DNA from: Candidatus Heimdallarchaeota archaeon
GTDB lineage: Archaea; Asgardarchaeota; Heimdallarchaeia; JABLTI01
Length of the DNA: 21,360 nt
Reading direction: 5' to 3'
Assembly (NCBI GenBank): GCA_019058275.1
Contig: JAHLVW010000011.1
Span: forward strand, 1-21,360
Position 1 is the first letter of the stretch. Every line of letters starts with the position of its first letter. Below are positions 2,749 through 18,608 of this stretch, piece after piece. The notes under the pieces were generated by a model that made no database searches, was not told where the DNA came from, and worked only from the letters and a program-made list of their open reading frames with translations. The translations under genes were made by a program, and so were the position numbers.

Positions 2749-5700
2749 TTAATTGAATGCTCTATATCTATATTCACCTTTTACTTCAATTTTCTGGTTT
2801 TCATTAATATAATAAAGTGATAGTTTCTCCCATTCATTACAAAAAATCTCAGCATAATCCTTAATTAATTTTGAATTCTCTAAGATGTCATAATCATCAG
2901 ATAAATAATCTATTATTTCATCTGAAACGAAAACAATAACCTTTGCTTTTGCTCTAGAAATAGTGACATTAAATCTATTCAAACTCATTATGAATTCATC
3001 CTCATCTCGAATTATATCTGGATCTCCTAAACAATATGATGCTATTATTATATCCCTCTCTTGTCCCTGAAATCTATCAACAGTATCTACAGCATCTCTA
3101 ATTAGAGATGGTTCATAATCTTCTTCTCCCTCAAATGCTCTTTGTAATAGATTAATTATTAAACCTTGTTGTGCTCTGTGTGGCGTAACAACTCCAATTC
3201 CTTTTTCCCAAAATTCTTTGAATGAATATATTTCATTACTTGGTATAATTTCATCATTTGTCAAGGGATTAATTTGATTTAATAAATCCTTTTTTAGATA
3301 ACCATATAAATGACGAATTAATGCTGTTATTGAATTAGCTTCAAATTGATTCCATTGACCACTTCTACCATCAGGATAAACAAAACAAGCAACTGGTTTA
3401 GTTGGATCAAGCAAAAGATTCCATTTATCAGTCCAATACAATTCATCATTCCAATTGATAGGTTTTTCATATGGTAATTCATTAATATTTAACATCAAGT
3501 TAGGTGAAAAGCTTTCTAATCGTTCAAGATAACCCGCATTAAATGAAAAATCGACAATTATTCTATTTGATCTGTAGTTTATATCTAACATTTTCTCTTC
3601 TAAATTGTGATAATCTTTATAGTAAGAATAGATAGAACCTACAAAATTTTCAAAGTCCAAAGGTGGTTTAACTTTGTGTATAGGTGGAAGTTGTTTTAAA
3701 TCTCCAGCAAGAACTAATGAACCTCCATTTGAAACTGAGCATAATGAGAGAATTGCACTTGACACATCCATCTGAGTTGCTTCATCAATTATTATAATGT
3801 CAAATAATTCATTTAAATATCTCTCATTACCTACTTTCATTAAATTGTAAATTTGGCTTGGTGTTGAAGCAATTACATGTATACTATTATTATTCACTAA
3901 TTCATTGAATAGATTTCTCAAGCGTTTTTTGGAACTTTGAGAAGATCCATCATATGCTAAATCAACATCACTTTCCATAGGTGGTTGACTATGAATTGAT
4001 CTTAATCTATATATTTGACAATCAGTTTCAGGTAAATTACTTTTTATAAAAACATTAACATACTTGAAAACATTATCAATCGCTTTGTAATTGGCTGAGC
4101 AGATTAGAATTCTCTTATTTTCGTTTTGGTTATGTGCCAAAATAACAGAACCTATTGCAATTCCTTGTAAAGTACGACTTTTACCTGTTCCAGGTGGTCC
4201 CCATATCAATTGAATTCTTTTGGACATAGCATCTTCCCAAGCTTCCCATTGTGTATTATTTAAATTAAAACTAGAATTCACAATCTGATCTTTTATCATA
4301 GACAAATCTCTTGATAATAAAGTAGTTGCTGTTTCTTGAACATTCCAAATGAAATCGACTGGTGGACTTATCTGAGAAATCCTAGCTCCACGCGTATTTA
4401 TTTGCCCAGTTATTTGTAATAATCTTTCATCTGAATCTCTATATGGTCTTCCAATTGCTCTTAAACAATCTTTTAATTTTCCTGTAAAGAAATCTAGGAA
4501 TTTTGGATCCAGTAAAACATTAATATTTAGGTTTGCTAGATTATAATTCTCAATCTCATCCAGAGAAATTCCTCTATTGTTATGTTCAACTACAATGATT
4601 AGATTTTCTCGATCTATGGCTTTTATTGTAACTCCAGTTAAATCTTCCATTCGAGAATTCAATAAACGATTATCAAAAAGACTCATTAATGTTTGATTAC
4701 CATGAATAAATCTAATTAACTTACTATTAAGAAAACTTTGATTATTTTCCGGTGCTAGGGCAAAATTAAAGTCACCTTCACGTAGTTTAACTTCTTTTGA
4801 AGTTTCTCTCATTCTATAAATTCTTATGTTTTCATTTTCTTCTATCTGTAATTCCTCAAGAATTATATTAGCTTCTCTACCAACTATTCTATTAACTAAT
4901 CTAGCACTTCGAAATTTAGCTTCTCGCATATGAGGTGGCATTGCTCTAATTCTATGTACCTCTAATTCATTGAAGGCATAATTCAATTTTTGATGTAAGA
5001 ACCAAAGATTGCCCTCAGGACTCATTCTTGGTATTGTTCTTGGAGGACGAATTGCTATTGTTGGAGCTTTTTGATATAGTGTTTGTCTTATATCAGTTTC
5101 CAATCGAGAAACAATAGTTTCCAAAGCTGATATCTTTTTAGTTACAGTTTCTCTAACTATATCTAATTGATTAGCCCAATATGGTTGAATTGTTCTGGTC
5201 CAAATTTCATGTGCTCTCTCTGATGGTATTTGATTGCTAAGGGGGTCTTCAAATAATGGATGTACTCTAAAACGAGCAATGTTTTCAGAAAGATCATGTC
5301 TATGATAATTCCTTGCTGTATCAAAGATATTATAATAATGAGGAATTGGTACCGCAAGATGTGAATTTATAACATCGGATAAAATTGTTAGGGGGGATCT
5401 TCTTGTTACAGTCTCCCAATTTTGTAATATTTCTTCAGGAGGAAACAACCATAAAAGATTATTCAAACCGTCTTGATTCATTAAAGCATCTAAATGTCTA
5501 CTTATTATTCGAGTTAAATGATTATATTGTGTTTTATCCCAGATGTAAATTTGATATGTGGTATCTTGATTAAATCTTCGAGCTTCAGATAATATATTAT
5601 CTAAAGTATCTAGAAAATTTATAAATTCTCTTCTCTCAATATTGGTATCTCTCTGGTCTATTCTAAAGACATGAGCTCCTCGTTGTGGCCATGAATGAAA

Positions 5701-7080
5701 ATTTTCTGTACTTTGTCCATATTCCGTAGGTTCTCTCCAAAATGCTTTCAAACCTATTGCAAAAGTAATTGCACTGGAAATATCAAAATCTATCGAAATA
5801 TAGATTCGCAAGTCAGCCCATTTAGGCATTTCAGCAGAGCTTCTATTTTCCATAACAATATTGATTTCATTGTTTTCTAGTGATGAAGCTCTTGCGGGAA
5901 TTATATCTCGATTTTCTCTCAATTTTTGATGTAATTTGTAGATTTCATCCTCACCTTCTCTCTCTAATAATTCACTTACATTACTAATATCAGTATCCTC
6001 TTCCAATGACTTTCTCGCTCCTACAGAAATCCCAAATATTCTTGAAAGATGATTTTCATTCTTTGCTTTAATTAAACAGTGATTATCATTGTATATTGGT
6101 TCACTTTTCCATGAAAAGCCAAGGTAATTACAATTTTTACATCTATTATCAACATGATAGTCTAAATCTTCCCAATTTGTAATTATAATATCAGGTAAAT
6201 CTTCAAGGAAAAATTTTTTTATTCTGACTGCAAAAACCTCAAATGGTACAATTTCTAAATCCTCTTCAAAAGCTGCGTATAGTTCCTCATAGTTCGGCTG
6301 TCTACCTTCTTCATCAATAATTCTTATTCTACATTTAATCAAATTAGAAGCTTCATGGGATCCAGACCATATTGAACCTTCAGGTATTACAACAAATTTA
6401 TCATCCAAATTATTATCAATAAGCCAACCAGATAAAGCCATCATATAGTAAGCTACTTCAGCAAGATAACTTTTAGAAGGATTTGCAGTTACTTTTATAT
6501 CAATTACTCTTAATTGCAATCTATCATCATTTTCTTGTAATCTTTTAACCTCACCATTTGGTGTAATGTACCTTTTGTAAGTACCTGCTGAAATTATATG
6601 TATGATATCTGGTCTAATTTCACTAAAATCTAAATTGAATAATTCTTTATAAGAAGATATTCCTAAGTCATCAAGAAATTTCTGTGATACGTCAAATTGT
6701 TGCTCTACTAAAAAAAGATCAGCACTTGCATTAGTTAATCCTATTTCTAATTCCATTTTATTATATTTGATTTCATTTTCTTCGATAGTTGCTGGATTTC
6801 CAATAATCTGTTCAGATCCAAATATTTCTCTCAAATCTGCTAATTTAGCTATCTCCCATCTTTTACCCTCTTTTCGAAATTGATCTAATCCTGGTCTTGG
6901 ATCTTGTTCAGGAGGTATTCCTTGTGTTTCTCTTTCATGTCTATATTTTTTATTATTTGGTGACAGATTGAATTTTAGTTGTCTTTTGCATTCAGTTCTT
7001 AAGTATTTTGATAAACATTCTTTCCTAAATAATGGCATAAAACTACTTCCATTTCCTTTTCTAATGATAATAATATTCAT
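2749..7080 (-). CDS. Cas4/RecB-like PD-(D/E)xK nuclease fused to Dna2/Upf1-type superfamily 1 helicase (TM0106/Dna2-like architecture)
   Basis: N-terminal IRPDII...VIDIK...EVAYY nuclease motifs with Cys residues (ECKRQ...CKNC...HC) in the Fe-S staple layout. A central RNase H-like segment (IYISIDFD) follows. SF1 motifs are complete: Q-motif LNNTQ, GPPGTGKS, IIIDEATQ, GDLKQLPP, NYRS, VTPHRAQ, TVDRFQGQERD, RFNVTISRAK. An alternative start is the ATG at 7038 (MPLFRK), preceded by AAGGAAATGGAAG. Confidence 0.88.
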   Translation of the reverse strand: MNIIIIRKGNGSSFMPLFRKECLSKYLRTECKRQLKFNLSPNNKKYRHERETQGIPPEQDPRPGLDQFRKEGKRWEIAKLADLREIFGSEQIIGNPATIEENEIKYNKMELEIGLTNASADLFLVEQQFDVSQKFLDDLGISSYKELFNLDFSEIRPDIIHIISAGTYKRYITPNGEVKRLQENDDRLQLRVIDIKVTANPSKSYLAEVAYYMMALSGWLIDNNLDDKFVVIPEGSIWSGSHEASNLIKCRIRIIDEEGRQPNYEELYAAFEEDLEIVPFEVFAVRIKKFFLEDLPDIIITNWEDLDYHVDNRCKNCNYLGFSWKSEPIYNDNHCLIKAKNENHLSRIFGISVGARKSLEEDTDISNVSELLEREGEDEIYKLHQKLRENRDIIPARASSLENNEINIVMENRSSAEMPKWADLRIYISIDFDISSAITFAIGLKAFWREPTEYGQSTENFHSWPQRGAHVFRIDQRDTNIERREFINFLDTLDNILSEARRFNQDTTYQIYIWDKTQYNHLTRIISRHLDALMNQDGLNNLLWLFPPEEILQNWETVTRRSPLTILSDVINSHLAVPIPHYYNIFDTARNYHRHDLSENIARFRVHPLFEDPLSNQIPSERAHEIWTRTIQPYWANQLDIVRETVTKKISALETIVSRLETDIRQTLYQKAPTIAIRPPRTIPRMSPEGNLWFLHQKLNYAFNELEVHRIRAMPPHMREAKFRSARLVNRIVGREANIILEELQIEENENIRIYRMRETSKEVKLREGDFNFALAPENNQSFLNSKLIRFIHGNQTLMSLFDNRLLNSRMEDLTGVTIKAIDRENLIIVVEHNNRGISLDEIENYNLANLNINVLLDPKFLDFFTGKLKDCLRAIGRPYRDSDERLLQITGQINTRGARISQISPPVDFIWNVQETATTLLSRDLSMIKDQIVNSSFNLNNTQWEAWEDAMSKRIQLIWGPPGTGKSRTLQGIAIGSVILAHNQNENKRILICSANYKAIDNVFKYVNVFIKSNLPETDCQIYRLRSIHSQPPMESDVDLAYDGSSQSSKKRLRNLFNELVNNNSIHVIASTPSQIYNLMKVGNERYLNELFDIIIIDEATQMDVSSAILSLCSVSNGGSLVLAGDLKQLPPIHKVKPPLDFENFVGSIYSYYKDYHNLEEKMLDINYRSNRIIVDFSFNAGYLERLESFSPNLMLNINELPYEKPINWNDELYWTDKWNLLLDPTKPVACFVYPDGRSGQWNQFEANSITALIRHLYGYLKKDLLNQINPLTNDEIIPSNEIYSFKEFWEKGIGVVTPHRAQQGLIINLLQRAFEGEEDYEPSLIRDAVDTVDRFQGQERDIIIASYCLGDPDIIRDEDEFIMSLNRFNVTISRAKAKVIVFVSDEIIDYLSDDYDILENSKLIKDYAEIFCNEWEKLSLYYINENQKIEVKGEYRYRAFN

Positions 7081-7146
7081 TAATATTAGAAATCTTTCCT
7101 TTTAATAGATAAAAATCTTTAGAAATGTAAATTGGAATGTAGATTA

Positions 7147-8883
7147 TCATAACTCATTATAAAAATCAATTAAATCAGGAATTTTTTCCATTAATTCAAA
7201 ATCTGATTTGCTTATATAAGTGTTAGTATTTACTGTAATTGTATCCTTTTTTCTTTCAGAAAACACAAATAACAGATCTAAATATATTTTTCTTTTAGAA
7301 ATTTTACCACTACTTTCTCCCATTACAGGATAAATACAATCTAGATTATAATCTAGTGTTTTGAATATCTCAAGGAAATTTCTAATTATGTAGAGATTTG
7401 TATGATGATAAGTAACTATGATTTGACTATCATAAGAAAGCTTGGTTTTAATTTTTGAAAAAATCTCTGTTAGCATTAGTTTATATTTATCTAGGGATTT
7501 TTTATCTCTCATTACTACTTCTTTTTCTACTAAATTGTTCAAACCTTCTTTATCAACTTCTCTTAATAGTGCAAGATTAAATAATGATAAATCAGAGTAA
7601 TATTGGAAATCTGCATAAGGAGGATCTGTGAATACAATATCGAATTTCACATTAATATCATTTAGAATATCTTGTGAAGGTCCATGAAATAGATTAAAAT
7701 TAAAGTTATATTCTTCCGAATTCATTTTGGCTTTTACTATTTTGTTAAAAGCTGAAATTATATTCCCTCTTCCTAAAGGTTGAAGCTTGTTTTTTACAAT
7801 ATATGAATTTGGATTCAATTCAGTTGGTTGTTTTGGTAACCAATAACTCTTAATTGTAAATCCTGGTATTATTTTTCGATAAATGTTTGAATAATAAGCT
7901 AAAAAAGAACATGATCTTAATGCATTTGAAACAACAATCCTTGATATTTCTCTATAAGGGGTTTTATCAAAGTAATCCAAAAATTGTTCAAATGTTATCT
8001 TTTGCCTATTAGATAATAATTCTCCGAAATCGTTGAATCCATGTTTCAATAGTCTATTTGTTTCATTTAAATTGGGAATTTCCATAAAATTTTTCTTATA
8101 ATCAAAATCATTACAATAAAATAATAGTGTTTCTTCATCGCTAATTTTCTTAATTTCCCTAGAATTACATTTTGAGCAATAATATTCTATAGCAAAAGGT
8201 ATGATTTTATTATATTCAAAATCTTCATATTCTTTGTTAAATAAATTATCACAAATTGGACATCTTTCTAAATTTATTTGATTTTTAAAAATTCCTTTGC
8301 ATACTTCACAAAAATAAATTGACTCCTTATTTCCCCTTTTAATTTCATTGTATTTGATTTGCATTTCATTATCATTATTAACCCATGATAGAAAAGTGTG
8401 AATTATTGTAGATTCGTGTTCTTTCTTGCATTTTGTAGACCATAACATTTTGTTGTTCAATCTAGAAAAAACTAAAATTTCCCTTTCCAATTCGTTTAGA
8501 TTTATTTTATTTAATTCCTTATAAGAAGAGACAATATTATAAGCTAGTTTGTTTATTTCTATGCCATAAGAATTGAAACCTAGTAATCCACTTTCCAATA
8601 AAATTGTTCCACCTCCACAAAAAGGATCTAAAAGGGTTTTGCTTTTATACTTTGGTGGATTGTAATATTTCTCAGATACAAATTCATTATAATCTGTAAT
8701 TTCCTTTAAGGTTTTTAATTCCATTTGAGAGTATATCAAAAACAATCTAACAATTCCAGAATATCGTCTAGCCCACCATTTGTGAATTTCATAAATGGGT
8801 TTTCTTCTGCTCCACTCGAGATTTTTGGCAAAATCATTTGTAGCATCTAGAAGATTCTTTGGAATTCTGTCAATTATTTTCAT
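7147..8883 (-). CDS. DNA amino-methyltransferase (N6-adenine or N4-cytosine) with Zn-ribbon, DUF1156-like
   Basis: IHKWWARR signature of DUF1156-type methylases, SAM-binding LDPFCGGG, Cys/His pairs (CKKEH, CEVC, CPIC, CSKC) and catalytic FTDPPY. Confidence 0.88.
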   Translation of the reverse strand: MKIIDRIPKNLLDATNDFAKNLEWSRRKPIYEIHKWWARRYSGIVRLFLIYSQMELKTLKEITDYNEFVSEKYYNPPKYKSKTLLDPFCGGGTILLESGLLGFNSYGIEINKLAYNIVSSYKELNKINLNELEREILVFSRLNNKMLWSTKCKKEHESTIIHTFLSWVNNDNEMQIKYNEIKRGNKESIYFCEVCKGIFKNQINLERCPICDNLFNKEYEDFEYNKIIPFAIEYYCSKCNSREIKKISDEETLLFYCNDFDYKKNFMEIPNLNETNRLLKHGFNDFGELLSNRQKITFEQFLDYFDKTPYREISRIVVSNALRSCSFLAYYSNIYRKIIPGFTIKSYWLPKQPTELNPNSYIVKNKLQPLGRGNIISAFNKIVKAKMNSEEYNFNFNLFHGPSQDILNDINVKFDIVFTDPPYADFQYYSDLSLFNLALLREVDKEGLNNLVEKEVVMRDKKSLDKYKLMLTEIFSKIKTKLSYDSQIIVTYHHTNLYIIRNFLEIFKTLDYNLDCIYPVMGESSGKISKRKIYLDLLFVFSERKKDTITVNTNTYISKSDFELMEKIPDLIDFYNEL

Positions 8884-8943
8884 ATTGTTTAATAGAATAT
8901 TATTATAGATTAAATTTTTTACTAGAGTAGCTTGATATAAGTA

Positions 8944-11136
8944 TTATAGAAACCAAGGTTTTTCTACCCATTTTTCTAATGGAGCTGATTCTAGATTAGA
9001 TAATACCAAGCATTTCTCTGCATATTTTAATGTACATGGAAATTTCGATTTTGATTTTGTATAACCCAAATGCATTCGAGATAAAAGAAATGTTGTTTCT
9101 ATATCTTCATGCTCTAGATTAGCATTTACTTTCGTTATCTTTATTGGTTCTGGCATCCTATCCTCAATCATTTCTGATGTAGTAACAAGAATAGCTTTTT
9201 TTCCTGACTCTAGAAATAAATATGTTCCATCATCGGGTTTCTTATTTTCTTTTTGAGAATATATTCTTTCATAATAACTTCGTGTTATAACAAAAACATC
9301 ATTAAACGAATTACAAAACTCATGTTCGAAAGGATACAAAATACCTCTTTTGTGCAGAATGATTTTTTCATTTCTTATTATTGGTCTAATATTACTATTA
9401 TAATTAATTTTCAATTTAGTAATATAATCACTTTTATCTTCAGGATTAAATTTGCCAGTAAAACTACCTCTAAATGATCCTTTAGGTGAAATTAAAATCA
9501 TACTGTAAGTTCCATTCCAGAAATTAGATTGTAATCCTAAAAACCAAGAGTTTAAATCTTTATTTAAAACCCATGCAATTCCTCCAGCTTTTGAATAAAT
9601 ACCAAGTGAAGTTTCATTAATATGATTGCTAAAAGGTATATCTTGATTAACATTTAATCCCTGAACATTGATATTGAGCTTATGGCATTCTCTCTTAATC
9701 TCTCTTAACCACTTATAGTCATCTTCATCATCCATTATTGCTAAAACTATATTCGTTTCTAGTTCTCTTATATCTTTTAGTTTATCAAAGTAATAATAAT
9801 CAGTTTTGACATTAAAATTTTGAATCAATCGATTCTTAATGGAATTAACATATCTTGCTGGATTTTTCGATAAATGTCTTCTACTTTTAATAATTCCTAG
9901 ATTTATATTTGATAACTGGTTATCAAAATCTGAAATTGTGAATCTATTTTTTAAAATGAATTTAAACGGATCTAGCACCTCACTTAGTTTATTATCTATT
10001 TTTATTGTATATTTTGGTTGTTTAATTTTAATTAGTGGTTTTTTAAGAAAAGTCTTTTCAGTGAAAAATCTCATTCCACTGGGCGAAGCAACTAGATTTT
10101 TAAGATTTTCAATACTGTCTTTGTATCTTTTTTTAGGAGTGGCATGCAATATATTTGTAATCTTCTTTCGATCTTCATATTCCCTTATTATTTTCCTATC
10201 TATTTTTATTTGACGTCTAAGTCTTTCGGGTACAAATGTGTAAGTTCCACCTCCTCTTTTGGTTTCAATTAAAGGGGTTTCATTCTTTATTTTTGGTTCT
10301 TGATCTTCTGCTTTTAATTTATTAAAAAAAAGACAATCCTTAAAACTATAATCATAATAATTATGGATTATTCCTTTTCGATCAGTAAAAGTTGCATCTT
10401 TAGGTTTTTCCATTATGAATTTTTCAAACTTATAACCACTTCTTTTGAAATTAATTGGAGACAAAGTACATTCTCCATTTTTTAGAAATAGACATTCATA
10501 TTTGGAACATGTTTGAAATAAATATTCATTCTTGAGATTTCTTTCAAGTGTTTCTAAATCTTCTAACCCGTATTCATTAATTTCATCTCGTAATGTAAAT
10601 TTAGAAAAAAACTTATGACGTGTATCTACAAAAACATAAGGTTCACCATCTCTTCCTTGGTAAACCTTAAACGTAAATCCTGGATAAAGTACTATTTTTT
10701 GAAAAATAATTGGTTTGTGTTGATATACTTCAATATCTACAACTTTTTCTAATTCTTGAGTACTAATAGCGGTTGGACTTCTTCTGCTTGGAATAATATA
10801 GAAATTGGAATTCCTAAGTGAATATTTTAAGCAATTAGTTATAAAATTGATTTTGTTTTCCTCATAATCATAAGGATCCTTTTCTTTTCTCAAGCTATTG
10901 CCTAGAATCTTCCTTATTTCGTCTTCTAAATTTTCAAAGTAATATAGAGTATGTATATGTGTTTGATTATTAATTATAATATCAATTTTGAATCTATCTG
11001 AAATTGTCTTTATTAAGTTTAATCCTTCAGAATAGTCCTTCTGACTAAAATCAAGGAAAAACTTTTTTATTGTTAATCTTTCTACACTAGCAAAATTTAT
11101 TCTGGATGAATTTAAGAATACCATTTCTTGACTCAT
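8944..11136 (-). CDS. ago: Long prokaryotic Argonaute (PIWI-domain protein), predicted catalytically inactive
   Basis: L1-like YPGFTFKV...VFVDTRHKF; PAZ-like NYYDY...PLI...YTFVPERL; MID EIKR...INVQGL...LGIYSKAGGIAWVL; PIWI RIY...PDDGTY, PEPIKI, LLSRMH, FPCTLKYAEK; C-terminal PWFL. Catalytic Asp positions are replaced (GLQ536S instead of GxD; HKR597G instead of HRDG). SD GGGGAG upstream; ATGA overlap with the preceding gene. Confidence 0.85.
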   Translation of the reverse strand: MSQEMVFLNSSRINFASVERLTIKKFFLDFSQKDYSEGLNLIKTISDRFKIDIIINNQTHIHTLYYFENLEDEIRKILGNSLRKEKDPYDYEENKINFITNCLKYSLRNSNFYIIPSRRSPTAISTQELEKVVDIEVYQHKPIIFQKIVLYPGFTFKVYQGRDGEPYVFVDTRHKFFSKFTLRDEINEYGLEDLETLERNLKNEYLFQTCSKYECLFLKNGECTLSPINFKRSGYKFEKFIMEKPKDATFTDRKGIIHNYYDYSFKDCLFFNKLKAEDQEPKIKNETPLIETKRGGGTYTFVPERLRRQIKIDRKIIREYEDRKKITNILHATPKKRYKDSIENLKNLVASPSGMRFFTEKTFLKKPLIKIKQPKYTIKIDNKLSEVLDPFKFILKNRFTISDFDNQLSNINLGIIKSRRHLSKNPARYVNSIKNRLIQNFNVKTDYYYFDKLKDIRELETNIVLAIMDDEDDYKWLREIKRECHKLNINVQGLNVNQDIPFSNHINETSLGIYSKAGGIAWVLNKDLNSWFLGLQSNFWNGTYSMILISPKGSFRGSFTGKFNPEDKSDYITKLKINYNSNIRPIIRNEKIILHKRGILYPFEHEFCNSFNDVFVITRSYYERIYSQKENKKPDDGTYLFLESGKKAILVTTSEMIEDRMPEPIKITKVNANLEHEDIETTFLLSRMHLGYTKSKSKFPCTLKYAEKCLVLSNLESAPLEKWVEKPWFL

Positions 11137-12071
11137 TCAAATTTCTCCCCTTTAATTTCAATGTAATTAACTGGTTTTTCATTATAGTATTCTTCTATAA
11201 TTTTATCTAGTTTTCCTATCATATCATTATCAATTAACCAGTTTTCAATATCAAACAATGAATTCAAAACATCATTATTAGAATTAACTATCAATAGAGA
11301 TTCTCTGATGTCAAAAATAACATTCAGGAAAATCAGCCCAAAAAGCTGCTTTGTTTTTTTCAATTTTCTTATTTGCTCTAATTTTCTATTCAATTCATCA
11401 AAATTTAGTTCTTTAACGAATTTTAAAGATATTATAATCTCTATTATAAGTACATCTGACTTTAATTCTATAATTAATTGTGTTTTGAATAAGTCTTCGA
11501 TATTTAAACTAACATAGTTTTTTATCATTCTTATACAACTAATCTCATCTTCATGCTTTGAGAGAATTGGACTTCTTTTGTAATTCTTCCTTATTAATAA
11601 TTTAATTAATTTTTTTTGTAAATTCACCAATTCTTTTGTTTTATTTTCAAATCTAATTTCTTTAGAGAAGAATAATCCTGGTTCTTTTAAATTTGAACTT
11701 TCATAATAGAAATCAGTAATATATTCTAAAAATAATTCTCCAACTGAAGTAATAATATATTTCTTGATTTTTTTAGAACTATCTTTTTCAGATATTACAA
11801 TCAGTTCTTGGTTCAGTAATTCTCTCAAGTGATAATTCAGCATATTAGCATTAATGCTTTTTAGTTTTGATGTAAAATCCGTTTTATTAATATGATCTAA
11901 TTGAACTTTTCTTTCTATTATCTTAGCCAAATCTTTCGGAGATAAACCTTCATTTTTGCTATTCTTCAAGCTTTTTAAAATTTCAAATCTCCATATAGTG
12001 GATTCGCCACCCAAACTTGAGAATAGTTTTGATATTCTTTGATACATTTTACTACTCAATTCTATTTTCAC
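11133..12071 (-). CDS. Winged helix-turn-helix (ArsR-like) DNA-binding protein with uncharacterised C-terminal domain
   Basis: LFSSLGG...WRFEILKSL...GLSPKDLAK...NMLNYHLRELLNQELI...KKYIITSVGE is an ArsR-type wHTH pattern with an insertion between the helices. The annotated GTG is part of a GGTGA SD-like motif, so the true start may be TTG 12059 or ATG 12047. Confidence 0.75.
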   Translation of the reverse strand: MKIELSSKMYQRISKLFSSLGGESTIWRFEILKSLKNSKNEGLSPKDLAKIIERKVQLDHINKTDFTSKLKSINANMLNYHLRELLNQELIVISEKDSSKKIKKYIITSVGELFLEYITDFYYESSNLKEPGLFFSKEIRFENKTKELVNLQKKLIKLLIRKNYKRSPILSKHEDEISCIRMIKNYVSLNIEDLFKTQLIIELKSDVLIIEIIISLKFVKELNFDELNRKLEQIRKLKKTKQLFGLIFLNVIFDIRESLLIVNSNNDVLNSLFDIENWLIDNDMIGKLDKIIEEYYNEKPVNYIEIKGEKFE

Positions 12072-12202
12072 CTTAAAACTTTATACACAAAATATTTTAT
12101 TGAAAAACTAGAAAATAAATCTTTCGTGAAAATTTTTTCACATAATGCATTTTAATAAAAAGTGATATTGTTATCATAAATAAAGGAGTTGATTGAGTAA
12201 AA
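12072..12202. promoter_or_regulatory. Divergent promoter region with two candidate palindromic operators
   Basis: Perfect inverted repeat GTGAAAA-tt-TTTTCAC at 12126-12141 and TGATA-N4-TATCA at 12163-12176. BRE/TATA-like GAAAGA-TTTATTTT on the minus strand (12125-12112), TTTAATA on the plus strand (12151-12157) and SD AAGGAG at 12183-12188. Confidence 0.6.
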
Positions 12203-14482
12203 ATGTATTCAAATCTCTTCATATCAAAAAGTGAACCATTGAAAGAGCTTGTTGTCGACTACTATCATTTAGTAGGTGAGATTTCTCCAAATGATTTTTA
12301 CCGAATTATAAAAGGAGCAGAGAAGCATCTCTATAATCTTGGATTTTGTGTTTCAACTTTTAAAGATAAATTAGTCTTTTTAGATGAAATGACAAAACGA
12401 CCACCACCAGAATTTAGTATTGGTAGCTATAAATTCAAGTTAGCTAAAGATAAAATGAAACTCACTTCTGACAAACATGCATACCTTTTTTCAAATCTAG
12501 TTTTTTGTTCGCTAAAATTTAGAGCATATAAGAACGGTTATATTGGACCAGAAAGTCAGAAATTCTTTAGAAAACGACCTTTCAAGGTAGATTACTTAGC
12601 ATATCATGATGCTTTTGAATATGATGTAGTGGTTTTTAATGATGGTAGAGTTGGAATTTGGCTTGATCCGACAACTAGATGGAAACAAAGTGTCCAGAAT
12701 TTCCTTACTTGGTCTAAAAAACAGGAATTATCCCAGGATGAAATAAAGGAAGCGCTAATAGGTAAGATTGTAAAATGCCCAAGTCCTGGAAAGAAAGATT
12801 ATAGAGCCAAAATAGTTGATGTTTGTTATAAATCTATAAGTGAGTACAATATAAAAGCTAATGGCATAGAAACAACTGTATATGATTATTGGATATCAGT
12901 TAGCCCTAAACATAAGAATTGGTTAGATAAGAAATCAATACAATTGGATCCTAATGAAAAACCAGTTATAACAGTACAAATGATAGGTTTAGATTTTAGA
13001 CCTTCATTCCCTTCATCATTACTTAATCTCGTAATAGACATAAATGATCCACTTATTCCAAGAACTGCTTTATCTCAAAAGAAAATCTTGAAACCAAGAA
13101 TCCGTATTAATGAAACAAAAAAATTATTTGATTTAATTATCAAAGATGGTTTATTACTAGGAAAGTATAAACTTGATTTTAATCATGAGCTAATTGACTG
13201 GACAAAAAAGGGCAAAGAATATGCTAGAGTAAAACCGTTACCTTCACCTGATATTCAATTTGGAAACGAACAGATTATTAAATCTGATAGCCCATTTCAA
13301 GAGATTGATAGAAAAATTGCTTCTGCATTAAGAGAATATGGACCAGTTTCTCAAATCGAGAAATTATGTATAAATTACATTGTACCTAGTGATATTCAAG
13401 ATAAAATTGAGTCTTTTCATGAGACACTTAACAATGTTAGTAAGGAGTTTAAGCTTGCAGATTTAACACTTGGTGAAGTTAAAGCTATTGATAGACTTCA
13501 TCCTGATAGATATTTGCGAGAATCTAAACAACTAATGAACTCAAATGATCTTACTGTTGTTATACTTCCAGAAACTCAAACGACAAAAGCTTACATTTCA
13601 GCTAAGAGAGGTTTAGGTGAAAAACTAATTAGCAGTCAAATGCTGGAGTTTTCTACATTCAGCAAAATTGTAAGCAATCCTCAAAGTATGAGTTATACTT
13701 TATCAAATATAGTGGCTCAGATATACGATAAATCATTAGATCCTGGTGAATCAATTTGGCATCTTGCTAAACCAGCAGGTAGATTGGATCCAAAGAAAGT
13801 TATCTATTTTATGGGGTTTGATGTTTCAAGAGCTCCAGAAAAACGAAAAGAAGCTGCTGCTTATGCAGCAGTATGTGATCCATATGGTAGAATGCTATAC
13901 AGAAAAGCAATTGATACACACAAAGGTGAAAAAATACAAGCTAAAGTGTTAAGTGATTGGTTTTTTGATGTTGCTAGTTCAACATTTGATGAATCAAAAG
14001 AAACAAAGAAAATTGACTGTTTAATATTGTTCAAAGATGGCCCAATACAAAGTAATCAAGTTATTGATTATAAAAATGGTGCATTAGATGCAAAGAATAG
14101 ACTTGTAAAAGAAGGAATTATGGAAGAAAATTGTGATATAAAAGTTGTTTCTGTTATTAAGAAAGGTCCACATAGAATTTATGGTAAGGAAAGATTTGAC
14201 TATAGTACACAAAACACCTCAGTAATTTGGAATGAAAAAAAAGCCTTAATTGTAACAGCTAAAGCACATCAAGGTACATCTGCAGCAATTAGGATTAATT
14301 TAGATTTTCAAATAAATGAAGATATGATAATCGACCAAGTTATACAAATCTTCAATGATCTTAGATATCTTGATTGGAGTTCGCTTTATAAACAACCAAA
14401 GACCATTCTTCCATTGCACATAGTACAGAACTTAGCGAAGCTAAGTGCACATGATATTAATGTGCCATATATACCTAGGTAG
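12203..14482 (+). CDS. ago: Long prokaryotic Argonaute (N-L1-PAZ-L2-MID-PIWI) with near-intact catalytic tetrad
   Basis: L1 AFEYDV...IWLDPTTR; full PAZ (TVYDYW...IQL..NEKPVITV...FPSSLL); MID 5'-phosphate pocket Y464-K468-Q479-K510; PIWI GFD540VS, GE576K, FKD612G, KKGPHRI, LPLHIVQ742NLAK. Confidence 0.92.
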   Translation: MYSNLFISKSEPLKELVVDYYHLVGEISPNDFYRIIKGAEKHLYNLGFCVSTFKDKLVFLDEMTKRPPPEFSIGSYKFKLAKDKMKLTSDKHAYLFSNLVFCSLKFRAYKNGYIGPESQKFFRKRPFKVDYLAYHDAFEYDVVVFNDGRVGIWLDPTTRWKQSVQNFLTWSKKQELSQDEIKEALIGKIVKCPSPGKKDYRAKIVDVCYKSISEYNIKANGIETTVYDYWISVSPKHKNWLDKKSIQLDPNEKPVITVQMIGLDFRPSFPSSLLNLVIDINDPLIPRTALSQKKILKPRIRINETKKLFDLIIKDGLLLGKYKLDFNHELIDWTKKGKEYARVKPLPSPDIQFGNEQIIKSDSPFQEIDRKIASALREYGPVSQIEKLCINYIVPSDIQDKIESFHETLNNVSKEFKLADLTLGEVKAIDRLHPDRYLRESKQLMNSNDLTVVILPETQTTKAYISAKRGLGEKLISSQMLEFSTFSKIVSNPQSMSYTLSNIVAQIYDKSLDPGESIWHLAKPAGRLDPKKVIYFMGFDVSRAPEKRKEAAAYAAVCDPYGRMLYRKAIDTHKGEKIQAKVLSDWFFDVASSTFDESKETKKIDCLILFKDGPIQSNQVIDYKNGALDAKNRLVKEGIMEENCDIKVVSVIKKGPHRIYGKERFDYSTQNTSVIWNEKKALIVTAKAHQGTSAAIRINLDFQINEDMIIDQVIQIFNDLRYLDWSSLYKQPKTILPLHIVQNLAKLSAHDINVPYIPR

Positions 14483-14494
14483 GAGGAAAAGGAA

Positions 14495-15325
14495 ATGACT
14501 GAAATTGGACTATATATAATGATTTCAATAATTGGTGCTATTGTTATTGGATGGATAATCTATCAATTGGTTCAGCAAAGAAGAACAGAACCAGATGTTA
14601 ACTTTAGTCAACAACTTATGAATACCACCAATTTGATGCGGGATGAAATAAGGAAATTTCTAGATTATCTTCAAATGAAACCTGCTTCTCAAGGGAAGTT
14701 TGGTGAGAATATAGCTGATATCTTGTTATCAAATCTAACAGGAGATTTAATTGAAAAACAATATCAGACTGCAGATATTTCTGGAATAATAGACTTTGTT
14801 GTTAGACTTCCTGATAGTGATTTATTACTACCAATAGATAGTAAGTTTATTTTACCAAAAGAATTCGAAAACTTAGAAACAATAGAACTTGATAAAGATA
14901 CTATAAAGCAATTGAATAAAAAGACACAAGACAGAGCAAAAGAAATTAAAAAATATATTGAATCTAATGAAACTACAGACTTCGTATTGATGTTCATTCC
15001 TGATTTTGTTTTTGCTGTCTTAAATCGTCAGACACTCATTAAATTGTCTGAAATGAAGGTTGTTCCAGCTAATTCTAGTGGTTTACTAAGCACAATTTTC
15101 ATGATTAATATGCAACACCGGTTTACACAGTTGAATAGCTCTGCCTGTAAGTTTACTGATGTGCAGATGAAAGCATGTTTCAATATCACAGAAGCTATGA
15201 ATAAAATGCGAAAGGGTCAAAAACAATTCAGAGCAGGTGTGAAGAATTTTACTGATGCTTATAATATTCTTGACTATGTTAATGTTATGATTAATACACT
15301 AGAAGTTGAGGAGGAGGAAAAATAA
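14495..15325 (+). CDS. rmuC: RmuC-family PD-(D/E)xK nuclease-fold protein with N-terminal transmembrane helix
   Basis: Hydrophobic N-terminus IGLYIMISIIGAIVIGWIIY; RmuC motifs QGKFGE, IDFVVRLP...LPIDSKF and TTDFVLMFIP. SD AGGAGG at 14481-14486; starts 12 nt after the Argonaute stop. Confidence 0.82.
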   Translation: MTEIGLYIMISIIGAIVIGWIIYQLVQQRRTEPDVNFSQQLMNTTNLMRDEIRKFLDYLQMKPASQGKFGENIADILLSNLTGDLIEKQYQTADISGIIDFVVRLPDSDLLLPIDSKFILPKEFENLETIELDKDTIKQLNKKTQDRAKEIKKYIESNETTDFVLMFIPDFVFAVLNRQTLIKLSEMKVVPANSSGLLSTIFMINMQHRFTQLNSSACKFTDVQMKACFNITEAMNKMRKGQKQFRAGVKNFTDAYNILDYVNVMINTLEVEEEEK

Positions 15326-15870
15326 TGGGAATAATTTACTTAGATATTGAAACAACTGGATTGAACTATAATAATGATCAAATAGTAACGATACAATTGC
15401 AAGAAGATAATCAATCGTTGATAATTTTCAAATCATGGGAAAGTAATGAAAAAACTATTTTAAGGAAATTCTTAATGCGTCTTTCTGGGATACAACGCAA
15501 AGGTTTCACAATTTGTGTTGGTTTTAATATTTTAAAATTTGATATTCCTTTCTTGATATCAAGATGTAATTACCATAAGCTATTAACACCAAATGATTTG
15601 ATTGAAATCTTTTATCGGAATCTTGCCCATTGTGATTTACTACAGATTTTATTACCACATCATGATTGGAAGTATAAGGGTTTAACTTGGGATTATGTTT
15701 TACGATTATATGGTTATCAATCAAAGAAAGGTCATGGAAATCAAATTCCAATATGGTTTAAAGAAGGTAAATATGATAAAATAATTGAATATATAGAAAG
15801 TGAATTTCCACCAATGGTGGATATTTATTGGAAATTAAGAAAGAGTGATTTTCGAATAGTAACAACTTAA
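15325..15870 (+). CDS. DEDD-superfamily 3'-5' exonuclease (RNase H-like / PolB proofreading-like)
   Basis: ExoI IYLDIETTG, ExoII GFNILKFDIPFL, ExoIII-like YIESE. TAATG stop/start overlap with rmuC; SD GGAGGAGG. Confidence 0.85.
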   Translation: MGIIYLDIETTGLNYNNDQIVTIQLQEDNQSLIIFKSWESNEKTILRKFLMRLSGIQRKGFTICVGFNILKFDIPFLISRCNYHKLLTPNDLIEIFYRNLAHCDLLQILLPHHDWKYKGLTWDYVLRLYGYQSKKGHGNQIPIWFKEGKYDKIIEYIESEFPPMVDIYWKLRKSDFRIVTT

Positions 15871-15883
15871 AGGAGGTGAATTA

Positions 15884-16111
15884 TTGACAAAAAAAACTTA
15901 CAAGGATAGGAAAGGTTATATTCGCTTTAAGGATTCAGGAAAACGAGTTCATAGATGGGTTGTTGAAAAGCGCATTGGCAGAAAATTGAAATCTCATGAG
16001 GAAGTACATCATCGTAATCGAAATCGTTCTGATAATCGCTCAAGTAATCTATGGGGTTTTCTAGGAAAAACAGGTCGTAAAAAGCATCGCGAATTACATC
16101 GGAAAAGGTAA
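15884..16111 (+). CDS. Small basic HNH endonuclease-motif protein (HNH_3-like)
   Basis: VHRWVVEKRIGRKL...EVHHRNRNRSDNRSSNL...H...H is the HNH beta-beta-alpha pattern. The TTG start is preceded by a strong SD, GGAGGTGA, at 15872-15879. Confidence 0.8.
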   Translation: MTKKTYKDRKGYIRFKDSGKRVHRWVVEKRIGRKLKSHEEVHHRNRNRSDNRSSNLWGFLGKTGRKKHRELHRKR

Positions 16112-16165
16112 ATTATTTTTGTATTTAACTTATCTTCTATCATATATTTTTCATGTCATTTTAAT
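16112..16165 (+). terminator. Possible archaeal-type T-rich terminator after the rightward Argonaute operon
   Basis: Several oligo-T tracts (TTTTT, TTTTT, TTTT) directly follow the HNH stop. This is weak evidence in AT-rich DNA. Confidence 0.25.
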
Positions 16166-16216
16166 ACTGAAGAATAGTTATAGAAAAAATATTTGAATTA
16201 CTAATACTACTTTAAT

Positions 16217-18058: not shown

Positions 18059-18069
18059 TTGCTGCTTTT

Positions 18070-18603
18070 GTGAAGGATAATTCAGATATAAATTATCCAA
18101 ATGATATCGATTTCTTAGATTTCTCACATTTGTCTAGTTTTACTGAGCAAAGTAATCGCATTCAATACCAAAATAACCGTTTAAGTAAAAATGTGATAAT
18201 AAATAATCTTATAGAAAAACTAGGAACCCTTGTAAATGAGATAAATCAAGATTCAAGTACAAGAAGAATAAGTATTGGTGTGGGTTTTGATAATATTGAT
18301 TCTGTAAGATTTGCTATAACACAATTATCAAACATCTTTGAAAAAATTAAAATCAATAAATTCCAAAAAATCATTGAATTTCCTATCGGCAAAATTGATA
18401 TCTTAATTTCATCAATAAAGAATCATCAAGAAAGAGAATATGATATTTTTCTTTTTGGGATTACAATAGCTAATTTGAAATTTAGTGAGGAGCAAATATA
18501 TACTGCTTTAACTAGGGCTGCAAGCTATTTATTCATTTTTGGACCTGACTTCTCAGAAATTAGACCTAAAAGTATGAGAAAAAAAATTGAGAAACTGGTG
18601 TAA
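18070..18603 (+). CDS. SF1 helicase C-terminal part (second RecA domain); probably the frameshifted continuation of 16217-18058
   Basis: ISIGVGF, SSIKNHQEREYD (motif V-like) and YTALTRAASYLFIFG (motif VI). The frame is open from 17995, overlapping the end of the previous ORF, and there is no clear SD before the GTG. Confidence 0.7.
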   Translation: MKDNSDINYPNDIDFLDFSHLSSFTEQSNRIQYQNNRLSKNVIINNLIEKLGTLVNEINQDSSTRRISIGVGFDNIDSVRFAITQLSNIFEKIKINKFQKIIEFPIGKIDILISSIKNHQEREYDIFLFGITIANLKFSEEQIYTALTRAASYLFIFGPDFSEIRPKSMRKKIEKLV

Positions 18604-18608
18604 AATTC

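What the first reader, a model, noticed from the sequence alone, without database searches (positions are those of the whole stretch)
2749..16111. Twin-Argonaute locus: two divergent long pAgos sharing one control region, each with its own effector arm
Seen: two full-length, highly divergent Argonautes transcribed back-to-back from a 131-bp intergenic region with palindromic sites, with a wHTH gene between them. One has lost its catalytic aspartates and is followed by a methyltransferase and a nuclease-helicase. The other keeps D-E-D and is coupled to RmuC, a DEDD exonuclease and an HNH protein. Known: characterised pAgo systems (long-A slicers, long-B with a single effector, SPARTA/SPARSA, SiAgo-Aga1-Aga2, DdmDE) use a single Argonaute. 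Inference: this is a co-regulated two-Argonaute system with division of labour, for example one arm making or trimming guides and the other recruiting effectors. I do not recognise this arrangement as described.
Basis: partly seen in the sequence, partly recalled or inferred. Interest (0 to 1): 0.93.

Follow-up and report, generated by a model that had tools for sequence, protein, structure and literature searches.

The report
Paired Argonautes in an Asgard archaeon
A Heimdall-type Asgard archaeon carries two very different full-length Argonaute genes back to back, one unable to cut and one probably able to. The non-cutting kind almost always sits beside a second Argonaute in other genomes, which points to an undescribed two-Argonaute immune module, although here the cutting arm can clearly also exist on its own.

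Summary
Genes 8944-11136(-) and 12203-14482(+) both fold as full-length Argonautes.

- **AgoL** has lost both catalytic aspartates.
- **AgoR** keeps D540-E576-D612 and is followed by RmuC, a DEDD exonuclease and a small HNH protein.
- A 312-aa weakly wHTH-like gene (X312) overlaps the AgoL start by 4 bp and faces AgoR across 131 bp.

**For a real pairing:**
- 13 of 15 loci holding an AgoL-family gene carry a second Argonaute within about 2 kb.
- In the window's own subclade, 5 of 5 members sit beside a D-E-D Argonaute.
- In one of those loci all the genes form a single operon.

**Against it:**
- AgoR-clade genes stand without any AgoL in 10 of 10 other loci.
- A 99%-identical sister strain has the whole right arm, but with different upstream genes. 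The break lies exactly at the AgoR start.
- The methyltransferase and helicase are not conserved with AgoL. No nuclease domain was found in the helicase protein.
- The palindrome in the spacer is statistically weak.

An independent contig bridges the junction, so a chimera is unlikely.

I found no paper describing paired prokaryotic Argonautes. This scan has already noted related twin-Argonaute loci on other DNA. I rate this a new variant of a known kind.

The parts
8944..11136 (-). AgoL: full-length but catalytically dead Argonaute (730 aa), clade A of the AgoL family
   Evidence: PADLOC PprPIWI 4e-35. The model m621d2664e1e3 matches full-length Agos. Q and R replace the catalytic aspartates. 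The family profile matches long-A pAgos best, CpAgo at 3e-36.
11133..12071 (-). X312: 312-aa gene directly upstream of AgoL with an ATGA overlap. Possibly an N-terminal winged helix. It occupies the position of the conserved 'X' partner of AgoL-family genes.
   Evidence: Overlap and a GGGGAG site read. Only sub-threshold HTH_20/HxlR hits and weak Atlas leads. No significant match to the X-family profile.
12072..12202 (.). 131-bp divergent intergenic spacer between X312 and AgoR, with one perfect palindrome at 12126-12141
   Evidence: The sister strain's sequence diverges completely upstream of 12202.
12203..14482 (+). AgoR: full-length Argonaute (759 aa) with D540-E576-D612 and the MID residues K468, Q479 and K510. 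Probable slicer.
   Evidence: Pfam Piwi 1e-11. The model m108bd6a8b58d has pLDDT 85.6 and TM about 0.69 to CbAgo/CpAgo.
14495..15325 (+). RmuC-family protein, 12 bp after AgoR
   Evidence: Pfam RmuC 2e-19. The same gene follows Argonautes in L001 and L049.
15325..15870 (+). DEDD-type 3'-5' exonuclease (RNase_H_2 / PolB-exo-like)
   Evidence: Pfam PF13482 4e-10. It matches the exonuclease in the second-Argonaute arm of L011 at 3e-59.
15884..16111 (+). Small HNH_3 endonuclease (75 aa)
   Evidence: Pfam HNH_3 2e-9. Homologues sit in the Argonaute arms of L001, L011 and L049.
7147..8883 (-). DUF1156-like DNA methyltransferase, 60 bp after AgoL. Probably a separate defence gene.
   Evidence: Relatives are common in other Asgard families and do not lie next to Argonautes.
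2749..7080 (-). 1443-aa protein with a C-terminal Upf1-like SF1 helicase (DpdJ/MkoA/MkoC-like) and an unassigned 930-aa N-terminal region. Membership in the system is doubtful.
   Evidence: It is absent from other AgoL loci.

Best explanation
The locus is a variant of a recurrent paired-Argonaute defence module of Asgard archaea.

**Right arm (AgoR-RmuC-DEDD exonuclease-HNH).** This is a self-sufficient interference unit. AgoR is a full-length, probably cutting Argonaute that binds 5'-phosphorylated guides. By analogy with APACE1 and with RecBCD/AddAB-dependent pAgos, the three nucleases would make and trim DNA guides from broken invader DNA and help degrade the target.

**Left module (X312-AgoL).** These two genes are translationally coupled. 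AgoL keeps the guide-binding pocket but cannot cut, and X312 is a small, possibly DNA-binding protein. This type of module has no nuclease of its own. In every relative of its subclade it sits next to an active Argonaute-nuclease arm. I therefore read it as a guide-loaded sensor or regulator that works through the neighbouring arm or modulates it.

**History.** In this genome the module arrived by recombination, with a crossover in the first 200-300 bp of AgoR. It replaced the ATPase-wHTH and ~285-aa genes that normally face AgoR.

**What is shown and what is inferred.**
- Shown: folds, catalytic status, synteny statistics and recombination history.
- Inferred: guide type, who makes the guides, and any functional or physical link between the two Argonautes.

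The methyltransferase and helicase are most likely a separate neighbouring system.
For: - Both proteins are full-length Argonautes. AgoL is dead and AgoR keeps D-E-D.
- Exhaustive search and genome scans gave 15 AgoL-family loci. Thirteen have a second PIWI protein within about 2 kb.
- The family tree has a clade A (support 95) made of the window, L010, L011, L049 and L054. All five sit beside a D-E-D Argonaute of three different kinds.
- In L010 the active Argonaute, a Cas4-like nuclease and AgoL form one operon with 3-4 bp gaps.
- The DEDD exonuclease (3e-59), HNH and RmuC (2e-76) recur in the second-Argonaute arms of L011 and L049. L049 is from the same genus.
- X312 and AgoL share an ATGA overlap. 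A roughly 215-270-aa gene with weak wHTH matches precedes AgoL-family genes in 11 loci.
- Divergence from the sister strain falls from 17% to about 2% to about 0.1% along AgoR and beyond. This places a crossover inside AgoR, so the donor already carried an AgoR allele beside X312-AgoL.
- AgoR relatives are followed by NurA-HerA-Mre11-Rad50-SNase or by a Cas4-like nuclease. This fits guide production by end-resection enzymes, as shown for ACE1 in PMC12094033.
Against: - AgoR-clade genes have no second Argonaute and no X gene in 10 of 10 other loci.
- The sister strain (L056) carries the same right arm at 99% identity with other upstream genes, so AgoR does not need AgoL.
- X312 shows no significant sequence match to the X family (hhalign probability 1.7%).
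- AgoL has no close relative anywhere; the best is 28% identity. The exact pairing is therefore seen once, plus one distant case (L054).
- Defence genes cluster, so adjacency alone can mislead.
- No expression or guide data exist.
Confidence: 0.55

Rival explanations
1. Two independent Argonaute systems lie side by side in a defence island. AgoR-RmuC-DEDD-HNH is one stand-alone system. X312-AgoL, perhaps with the methyltransferase and helicase as its effectors in the manner of long-B pAgo systems, is another. Recombination put them back to back without any functional link.
For: - The right arm exists without AgoL in a 99%-identical strain, with the break exactly at the AgoR start.
- AgoR-clade genes are solo in 10 of 10 other loci.
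- The methyltransferase and helicase follow AgoL on the same strand with gaps of 60 and 66 bp.
- Both match anti-phage-associated models: DUF1156, HmaB, MkoA/C, DpdJ.
- The rest of the window is also defence-like: a helicase, a PLD nuclease and an nSTAND-like NTPase.
Against: - It does not explain why AgoL-family genes are next to another Argonaute in 13 of 15 loci, and 5 of 5 in clade A. This holds across three partner clades and in both tandem and divergent layouts.
- Only about one Asgard genome in five has any Argonaute (PMC11217426).
- The methyltransferase and helicase are not conserved with AgoL.
- The elevated divergence in the AgoR 5' end implies an earlier AgoR-AgoL adjacency in the donor.
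Confidence: 0.35
2. X312 is simply a transcription factor for both divergent operons, and AgoL is a decaying or regulatory remnant with no role in immunity.
For: - There are weak wHTH signals in X312.
- AgoR relatives usually face a divergent regulator-type gene, either Csa3/HFX_2341_N-like or an ATPase with a CasR-like HTH.
- One palindrome lies in the spacer.
Against: - AgoL is an intact 730-aa frame. It keeps the conserved MID residues (Q492, K516) and four invariant cysteines.
- The family is conserved across many Asgard lineages, which argues for selection on the protein itself.
- The palindrome is not statistically strong.
Confidence: 0.07
3. The back-to-back layout is an assembly chimera joining two organisms at 12072-12202.
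For: - The sister strain's homology ends exactly at 12202 and that strain is abundant in sibling samples.
- The window is a whole 21-kb MAG contig from a genome with 6.8% estimated contamination.
Against: - A separately built Logan contig covers 10895-12482 with no differences.
- Depth is even across the junction, at 5-9x. The runs may be the source sample, so this is not fully independent.
- The 280 bp of AgoR on that contig carry this strain's own variants, not the abundant strain's.
- The same divergent layout occurs in L011, L049 and L054.
Confidence: 0.03

Closest known systems
APACE1: long-A pAgo plus Argonaute-associated Cas4-family enzyme ACE1 (Bobadilla Ugarte et al. 2025, PMC12094033)
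   Same: An active full-length pAgo is co-encoded with a PD-(D/E)xK-superfamily nuclease. In APACE1 the nuclease binds the Argonaute and processes DNA guides. This is the best working model for AgoR-RmuC, and for the AgoP-Cas4-like pairs in L010, L011 and L049.
   Different: The nuclease here is RmuC-type, not Cas4/ACE1. It comes with a DEDD exonuclease and an HNH protein. The AgoR profile has no sequence-level match to any solved Argonaute. APACE1 has no second Argonaute and no wHTH partner.
Long-B pAgo systems (BPAN/BPAS/BPAM; PMC10620215, PMC13535254)
   Same: A full-length but catalytically inactive Argonaute depends on co-encoded proteins for its effect.
   Different: The AgoL-family profile matches long-A pAgos best, CpAgo at 3e-36; RsAgo, the one long-B structure I know of, is absent from that profile's hit list and scores only about 1e-12 with the broader profile. 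Its constant companion is another Argonaute rather than a single nuclease, SIR2 or membrane effector.
Twin and paired Argonaute operons noted earlier in this scan on other Asgard genomes (e1-5423299, e1-5517661, e1-5497633)
   Same: The same AgoL family and X gene occur with a second PIWI protein and a Cas4-like nuclease. I recovered these independently as clade B (two dead Argonautes) and as clade A with AgoP-long.
   Different: Here the partner is a different, PAZ-containing Argonaute clade (AgoR) with RmuC, a DEDD exonuclease and HNH. That clade is otherwise always solo. The pairing arose by a traceable recombination. Those notes are unpublished AI notes, not literature.
HrAgo1 and HrAgo2 of 'Ca. 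Harpocratesius repetitus' (Bastiaanssen et al. 2024, PMC11217426)
   Same: An Asgard archaeon has two very different Argonautes from Asgard-specific clades.
   Different: Those two are described as lying in separate operon-like clusters with other partners: RNase III and a helicase for one, transposition and replication genes for the other. They are not adjacent and not proposed to cooperate.
AfAgo/AfAgo-N and SiAgo-Aga1-Aga2 (PMC10954474, PMC11788926)
   Same: An archaeal inactive Argonaute works as a complex with a small co-encoded partner. This is a possible model for X312-AgoL.
   Different: Those Argonautes are short or split and the partner supplies missing domains or a membrane effector. 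AgoL already has all the domains.

Membership tests
Long Argonaute (N-L1-PAZ-L2-MID-PIWI) | Full-length bilobed Argonaute fold | tested here: met
   AgoL and AgoR models align over about 740-850 columns to Siwi, CbAgo, CpAgo, KmAgo, PliAgo and hAgo2 at E 1e-26 to 1e-33.
Slicer-competent Argonaute | DEDX catalytic tetrad in PIWI | tested here: inconclusive
   AgoR has D540, E576 and D612, invariant in its clade. Its fourth position is Q742/N743 instead of D, H or K. AgoL has Q and R at the two aspartate positions and fails the test.
Guide-binding Argonaute | MID pocket residues for the guide 5' phosphate (Y/K, Q, K) | tested here: met
   AgoR has K468, Q479 and K510 invariant, and Y464 nearly so. 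AgoL has Q492 invariant, and Y514 and K516 nearly invariant. This is by alignment only; binding was not measured.
Long-B pAgo system | Inactive long pAgo of the long-B clade with one effector gene in its operon | tested here: inconclusive
   AgoL is inactive. Its family profile scores long-A structures highest, and no tree with reference long-B sequences was built. The downstream methyltransferase and helicase are not conserved partners.
APACE1 | Co-encoded Cas4-family ACE1 nuclease | tested here: not met
   The gene after AgoR matches RmuC (2e-19) and no Cas4 or PDDEXK_1 model. A Cas4-like 474-aa gene lies further downstream only in the sister strain.
Paired-Argonaute module (AgoL family + X + second Argonaute + PD-(D/E)xK nuclease) | A second PIWI protein within about 2 kb of the AgoL-family gene | tested here: met
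   AgoR starts 1067 bp from the AgoL start. The same holds in 12 other loci.
Paired-Argonaute module | X-family gene immediately upstream of AgoL | tested here: inconclusive
   A gene of similar size is present and overlaps the AgoL start. It does not match the X-family profile. Only weak HTH signals are shared.
Paired-Argonaute module | PD-(D/E)xK nuclease directly after the second Argonaute | tested here: inconclusive
   The cluster-2 Cas4-like nuclease is absent and RmuC takes its place. That RmuC carries a PD-(D/E)xK-type nuclease domain comes from general knowledge of the family and was not tested here. L049 has both genes.
Hma / DUF1156-type methylase-helicase defence | DUF1156 methylase with its usual helicase/ATPase partners | tested here: inconclusive
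   Partial matches only: HmaB 1e-10, DUF1156 3e-9, all far below curated cut-offs. The helicase matches DpdJ and MkoA/C only in its helicase core.

The most novel reading that the evidence does not exclude
The two Argonautes form a relay comparable to the ping-pong of eukaryotic PIWI proteins. The cutting Argonaute and its nucleases slice invader DNA. The resulting 5'-phosphorylated pieces load the dead Argonaute, which together with its winged-helix partner holds the memory or signals a second response. This would be a prokaryotic two-Argonaute pathway in the archaeal lineage closest to eukaryotes.
Probability: 0.12. Interest if true: 0.92.

Novelty: new variant of a known kind. Interest (0 to 1): 0.68.

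Why it matters
All characterised prokaryotic Argonaute systems use one Argonaute. A conserved module in which a dead Argonaute always accompanies a second one would add a new layout to Argonaute immunity.

It would also do so in Asgard archaea, where the roots of eukaryotic multi-Argonaute pathways are being sought.

This locus is useful because nature has supplied the control. A near-identical strain carries the cutting arm without the dead Argonaute, so the contribution of X312-AgoL can be measured directly.

It also shows that such modules are exchanged by recombination inside the Argonaute gene itself.

Tried and rejected
- **Complex prediction.** AgoR(290-759) with AgoL(310-730) gave no verdict. 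Full-length chains exceed the size limit.
- **Sequencing runs.** No RNA holder is listed for this stretch, so nothing can be said about expression.
- **Related-locus searches.** The search for related loci with the AgoL-family alignment failed because no conserved stretch was available. With the AgoP-long alignment, the genome and metagenome scans only re-found L049 and L011.
- **AgoL word-based search.** It returned only the protein itself.
- **PDB sequence searches.** Neither single protein reached E 0.01 (AgoR: no hit; AgoL: only KmAgo at E 0.1), and the AgoR profile found nothing.
- **X312.** It gave no significant Pfam, PADLOC or NCBIfam hit, no hhalign match to the X family, and only Atlas leads below 0.9.
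- **Helicase N-terminal region.** The 930 residues were scanned in two pieces and no domain was found.
- **Literature.** Searches for second, tandem, paired or dual pAgo, for 'PprPIWI', and for Argonaute + Asgard + Cas4 returned nothing. The main pAgo surveys report strains with two pAgo genes but no adjacent pairs.
- **Rejected idea: the methyltransferase and helicase are AgoL's effector arm.** They are not conserved with AgoL.
- **Rejected idea: the downstream helicase-PLD genes form a Mokosh-type link to the Argonaute.** The PLD protein matches DrmC rather than MkoB, and these genes are absent from other AgoR loci.
- **Not done.** No tree with reference long-A, long-B, short and eukaryotic Argonautes was built, because no reference sequences were at hand.

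Full report
**Gene map.** The window is a complete 21,360-bp contig (C103) of a 4.1-Mb MAG that is 92.8% complete with 6.8% contamination. Its genus also contains a MAG deposited as Candidatus Heimdallarchaeota. The GC content is about 27%.

The genes of interest, from left to right:
- 2749-7080(-), 1443 aa.
- 7147-8883(-), 578 aa.
- 8944-11136(-), 730 aa, called AgoL here.
- 11133-12071(-), 312 aa, called X312 here.
- A 131-bp spacer.
- 12203-14482(+), 759 aa, called AgoR here.
- 14495-15325(+), 276 aa.
- 15325-15870(+), 181 aa.
- 15884-16111(+), 75 aa.

**Are there two Argonautes?** Yes.
- AgoR matches Pfam Piwi at 1e-11. AgoL matches no Pfam model, but both match PADLOC pAgo models at 4e-35 and 3e-39.
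- Neither single protein reached E 0.01 against any solved Argonaute by sequence: AgoR had no hit, and AgoL's only hit was KmAgo at E 0.1. The two cannot be aligned to each other by BLASTP.
- AlphaFold models have pLDDT 69.5 (AgoL) and 85.6 (AgoR). Both align over their whole length to full-length Argonautes such as Siwi, CbAgo, CpAgo, KmAgo, PliAgo, HrAgo1 and hAgo2, at E 1e-26 to 1e-33.
- Alignments show AgoL with Q and R at the two catalytic aspartate positions. Its MID residues Q492, Y514 and K516 are conserved.
- AgoR has D540, E576 and D612 and the MID residues K468, Q479 and K510, all invariant in its clade. Its fourth tetrad position is Q742/N743 rather than D or H.
- I therefore call AgoR a probable slicer, not a proven one.

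**The other genes.**
- The right-arm genes are RmuC (2e-19), a DEDD exonuclease of the RNase_H_2 / PolB-exo type (4e-10) and HNH_3 (2e-9). They are spaced by a 12-bp gap, a 1-bp overlap and a 13-bp gap.
- The 578-aa protein is a DNA methyltransferase with partial DUF1156/HmaB-like matches.
- The 1443-aa protein has an Upf1-like SF1 helicase at residues 930-1410. No recognisable domain, nuclease or otherwise, was found in the first 930 residues.
- X312 has only sub-threshold helix-turn-helix matches and weak Atlas leads to HTH families.
- Its stop codon overlaps the AgoL start (ATGA), with GGGGAG ten bases upstream. This points to translational coupling.
- The spacer has one perfect palindrome, GTGAAAA-TT-TTTTCAC at 12126-12141, unique in the window. 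Loose matches arise by chance in a third of shuffles.

**Relatives of AgoL.**
- A word-based search found nothing. An exhaustive HMMER search found distant relatives, the best at 28% identity.
- Their contigs, plus a profile search of 400 Asgard genomes, gave 15 loci with an AgoL-family gene.
- All-against-all clustering and HMM searches show a second PIWI-domain protein within about 2 kb in 13 of the 15.
- The two exceptions are a 5.6-kb contig and a locus cut by a contig end.
- The usual partner is a family I call AgoP. It comes in a 705-711-aa form that keeps D-E-D and a 590-630-aa form that has lost the catalytic residues.
- AgoP is followed in 9 loci by a Cas4-like PD-(D/E)xK nuclease.
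- A gene of about 215-270 aa with weak winged-helix matches (family X) precedes the AgoL-family gene in 11 loci.

A tree of the family (quick IQ-TREE search, SH-aLRT support) resolves three groups:
- **Clade A** (support 95): the window, L010, L011, L049 and L054. All five sit beside a D-E-D Argonaute.
- **Clade B** (support 99): ten loci, nine with the dead AgoP form.
- **Third group:** includes a Nitrososphaera viennensis gene that has an X-like neighbour but no second Argonaute.

Two clade-A loci are especially telling.
- In L010 the active AgoP, the nuclease and AgoL form a single operon with 3-4 bp gaps.
- In L049, from the same genus as the window, the layout is X-AgoL facing AgoP, a Cas4-like nuclease, RmuC and HNH. 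Its RmuC matches the window's at 2e-76.
- The window's DEDD exonuclease matches the one in the AgoP arm of L011 at 3e-59.

Only about a fifth of Asgard genomes have any Argonaute (PMC11217426). This degree of adjacency is therefore not chance.

**Relatives of AgoR.** The picture is the opposite.
- The clade has seven metagenomic relatives at 38-69% identity and four full-length genes in the Asgard genomes searched.
- In all ten other loci examined there is no second Argonaute and no X gene.
- The gene is followed by RmuC-HNH (L001), by NurA-HerA-Mre11-Rad50-SNase (L002, L006) or by a Cas4-like nuclease (L008).
- It usually faces or follows a ~370-aa P-loop ATPase with a CasR/Csa3-like C-terminus and a ~230-285-aa protein.
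- Those two partner genes were not found in this genome with the queries used.

**The sister strain.**
- Laying public contigs on the window gave two results. In two runs that may be the source sample, a separately assembled contig covers 10895-12482 with no differences, and depth is even at 5-9x. A chimera is therefore unlikely.
- In two sibling samples a 135x-deep contig matches only 12202-17000.
- I retrieved that contig as L056. It is 99% identical to the window from 12202 to the contig end.
- Upstream of AgoR it carries the clade's usual ATPase (371 aa) and a 285-aa gene instead of X312-AgoL.
- Divergence between the two strains is 17 differences per 100 bp in the first 200 bp of AgoR. 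It falls to about 2 per 100 bp in the rest of AgoR and about 0.1 per 100 bp further on.
- The simplest reading is a homologous crossover inside the 5' end of AgoR. That means the donor DNA already carried an AgoR allele next to X312-AgoL.

So the right arm is autonomous. The left module is a swapped-in unit, and the AgoR-AgoL adjacency existed in at least one other lineage.

**What it most likely is.** I read the locus as a member of a recurrent paired-Argonaute module family.
- The AgoR arm is a stand-alone interference unit. Its nucleases plausibly make and trim guides and help degrade targets. The models are the experimentally characterised APACE1 system and the dependence of other pAgos on RecBCD/AddAB (PMC12094033).
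- X312-AgoL is a guide-binding, non-cutting add-on with no nuclease of its own. It is always found next to an Argonaute-nuclease arm, so it probably acts through that arm or regulates it.
- The functional link is inferred from synteny only. A complex prediction for the two MID-PIWI lobes gave no verdict, and no RNA data are available.
- The main rival is two independent systems juxtaposed in a defence island. It keeps substantial weight because AgoR is otherwise always solo.
- The methyltransferase and helicase look like a separate system. Relatives of the methyltransferase are common in other Asgard families and are not next to Argonautes. Other clade-A loci have different or no such genes.

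**Comparison with what is known.**
- The AgoL-family profile matches long-A pAgos best, CpAgo at 3e-36. The AgoR profile matches no solved Argonaute by sequence.
- The closest characterised systems are APACE1 for the active arm, and long-B, AfAgo and SiAgo systems for a dead Argonaute that depends on partners. None has two Argonautes.
- The large pAgo survey reports 57 strains with two pAgo genes but does not describe adjacent pairs.
- The Asgard Argonaute papers describe HrAgo1 and HrAgo2 in separate clusters. They do not mention pairs.
- Targeted literature searches found nothing. The library is incomplete, so a description elsewhere cannot be excluded.
- Earlier AI notes of this scan describe related twin-Argonaute operons in other Asgard genomes. 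I reached the same families independently. This window adds a third partner type and the natural with/without comparison.

**Verdict.** This is a new variant of Argonaute-based defence. I put moderate confidence (0.55) on the two arms working together.

Noticed in passing
window 16217-18603 (indel at about 18037-18039): The MkoA-like SF1 helicase is split into 613-aa and 177-aa frames by a 13-nt difference from the sister strain, where it is one 790-aa gene (L056:6263-8635). This is either a recent frameshift (pseudogene) or an assembly error.
   Followed up: partly
L002:10001-18806, L006:6226-14002, L059: AgoR-clade Argonautes are followed by a dedicated NurA-HerA-Mre11-Rad50-SNase set. This suggests that archaeal end-resection enzymes are recruited as Argonaute accessories in place of bacterial RecBCD/AddAB.
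   Followed up: partly
L056:74-2049 (also L058, L059, L060): A ~371-aa P-loop ATPase with a CasR/Csa3-like C-terminal region and a ~270-285-aa protein of no known family are the usual divergent neighbours of AgoR-clade genes. Neither was found in this genome.
   Followed up: partly
window 8944-11136, AgoL residues C210, C215, C223, C268: Four cysteines are invariant across the AgoL family, in what the model shows as the PAZ region. This suggests a zinc-binding insert that AgoR lacks.
   Followed up: no
L010:9300-10841, L011:15621-16445, L049:2100-2924, window 7147-8883: A DNA methyltransferase, of three different families, lies within a few genes of the 3' side of AgoL in four of the five clade-A loci. 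In L011 and L049 it comes with a DUF87 ATPase. This may be coincidence or a self-marking component.
   Followed up: partly
L063:9102-16257 (Nitrososphaera viennensis, CP007536.1): A thaumarchaeal relative of the AgoL superclade keeps the first catalytic aspartate. It has an X-like gene directly upstream and a 1120-aa SMC-like protein downstream, but no second Argonaute. The X-Argonaute pair therefore looks older than the twin layout.
   Followed up: partly
L056:11467-12891 and L011:3546-4970: A 474-aa Cas4-like protein just beyond the window's right end in the sister strain matches (E 5e-237) a gene inside the second-Argonaute arm of L011. Accessory genes are therefore shared between otherwise different Argonaute arms.
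   Followed up: no
window 16217-21324: Downstream of the HNH gene lie a helicase, a 397-aa protein of no known family and a two-domain PLD nuclease with DrmC-like matches, all on the same strand. This is probably another defence system.
   Followed up: partly
window 12203-14482: A profile of the AgoR clade finds no solved Argonaute by sequence at E 0.01, although the fold match is excellent. The clade also ends in a conserved Y-I/V-P-R C-terminus. It is a deep, unplaced Argonaute lineage.
   Followed up: partly
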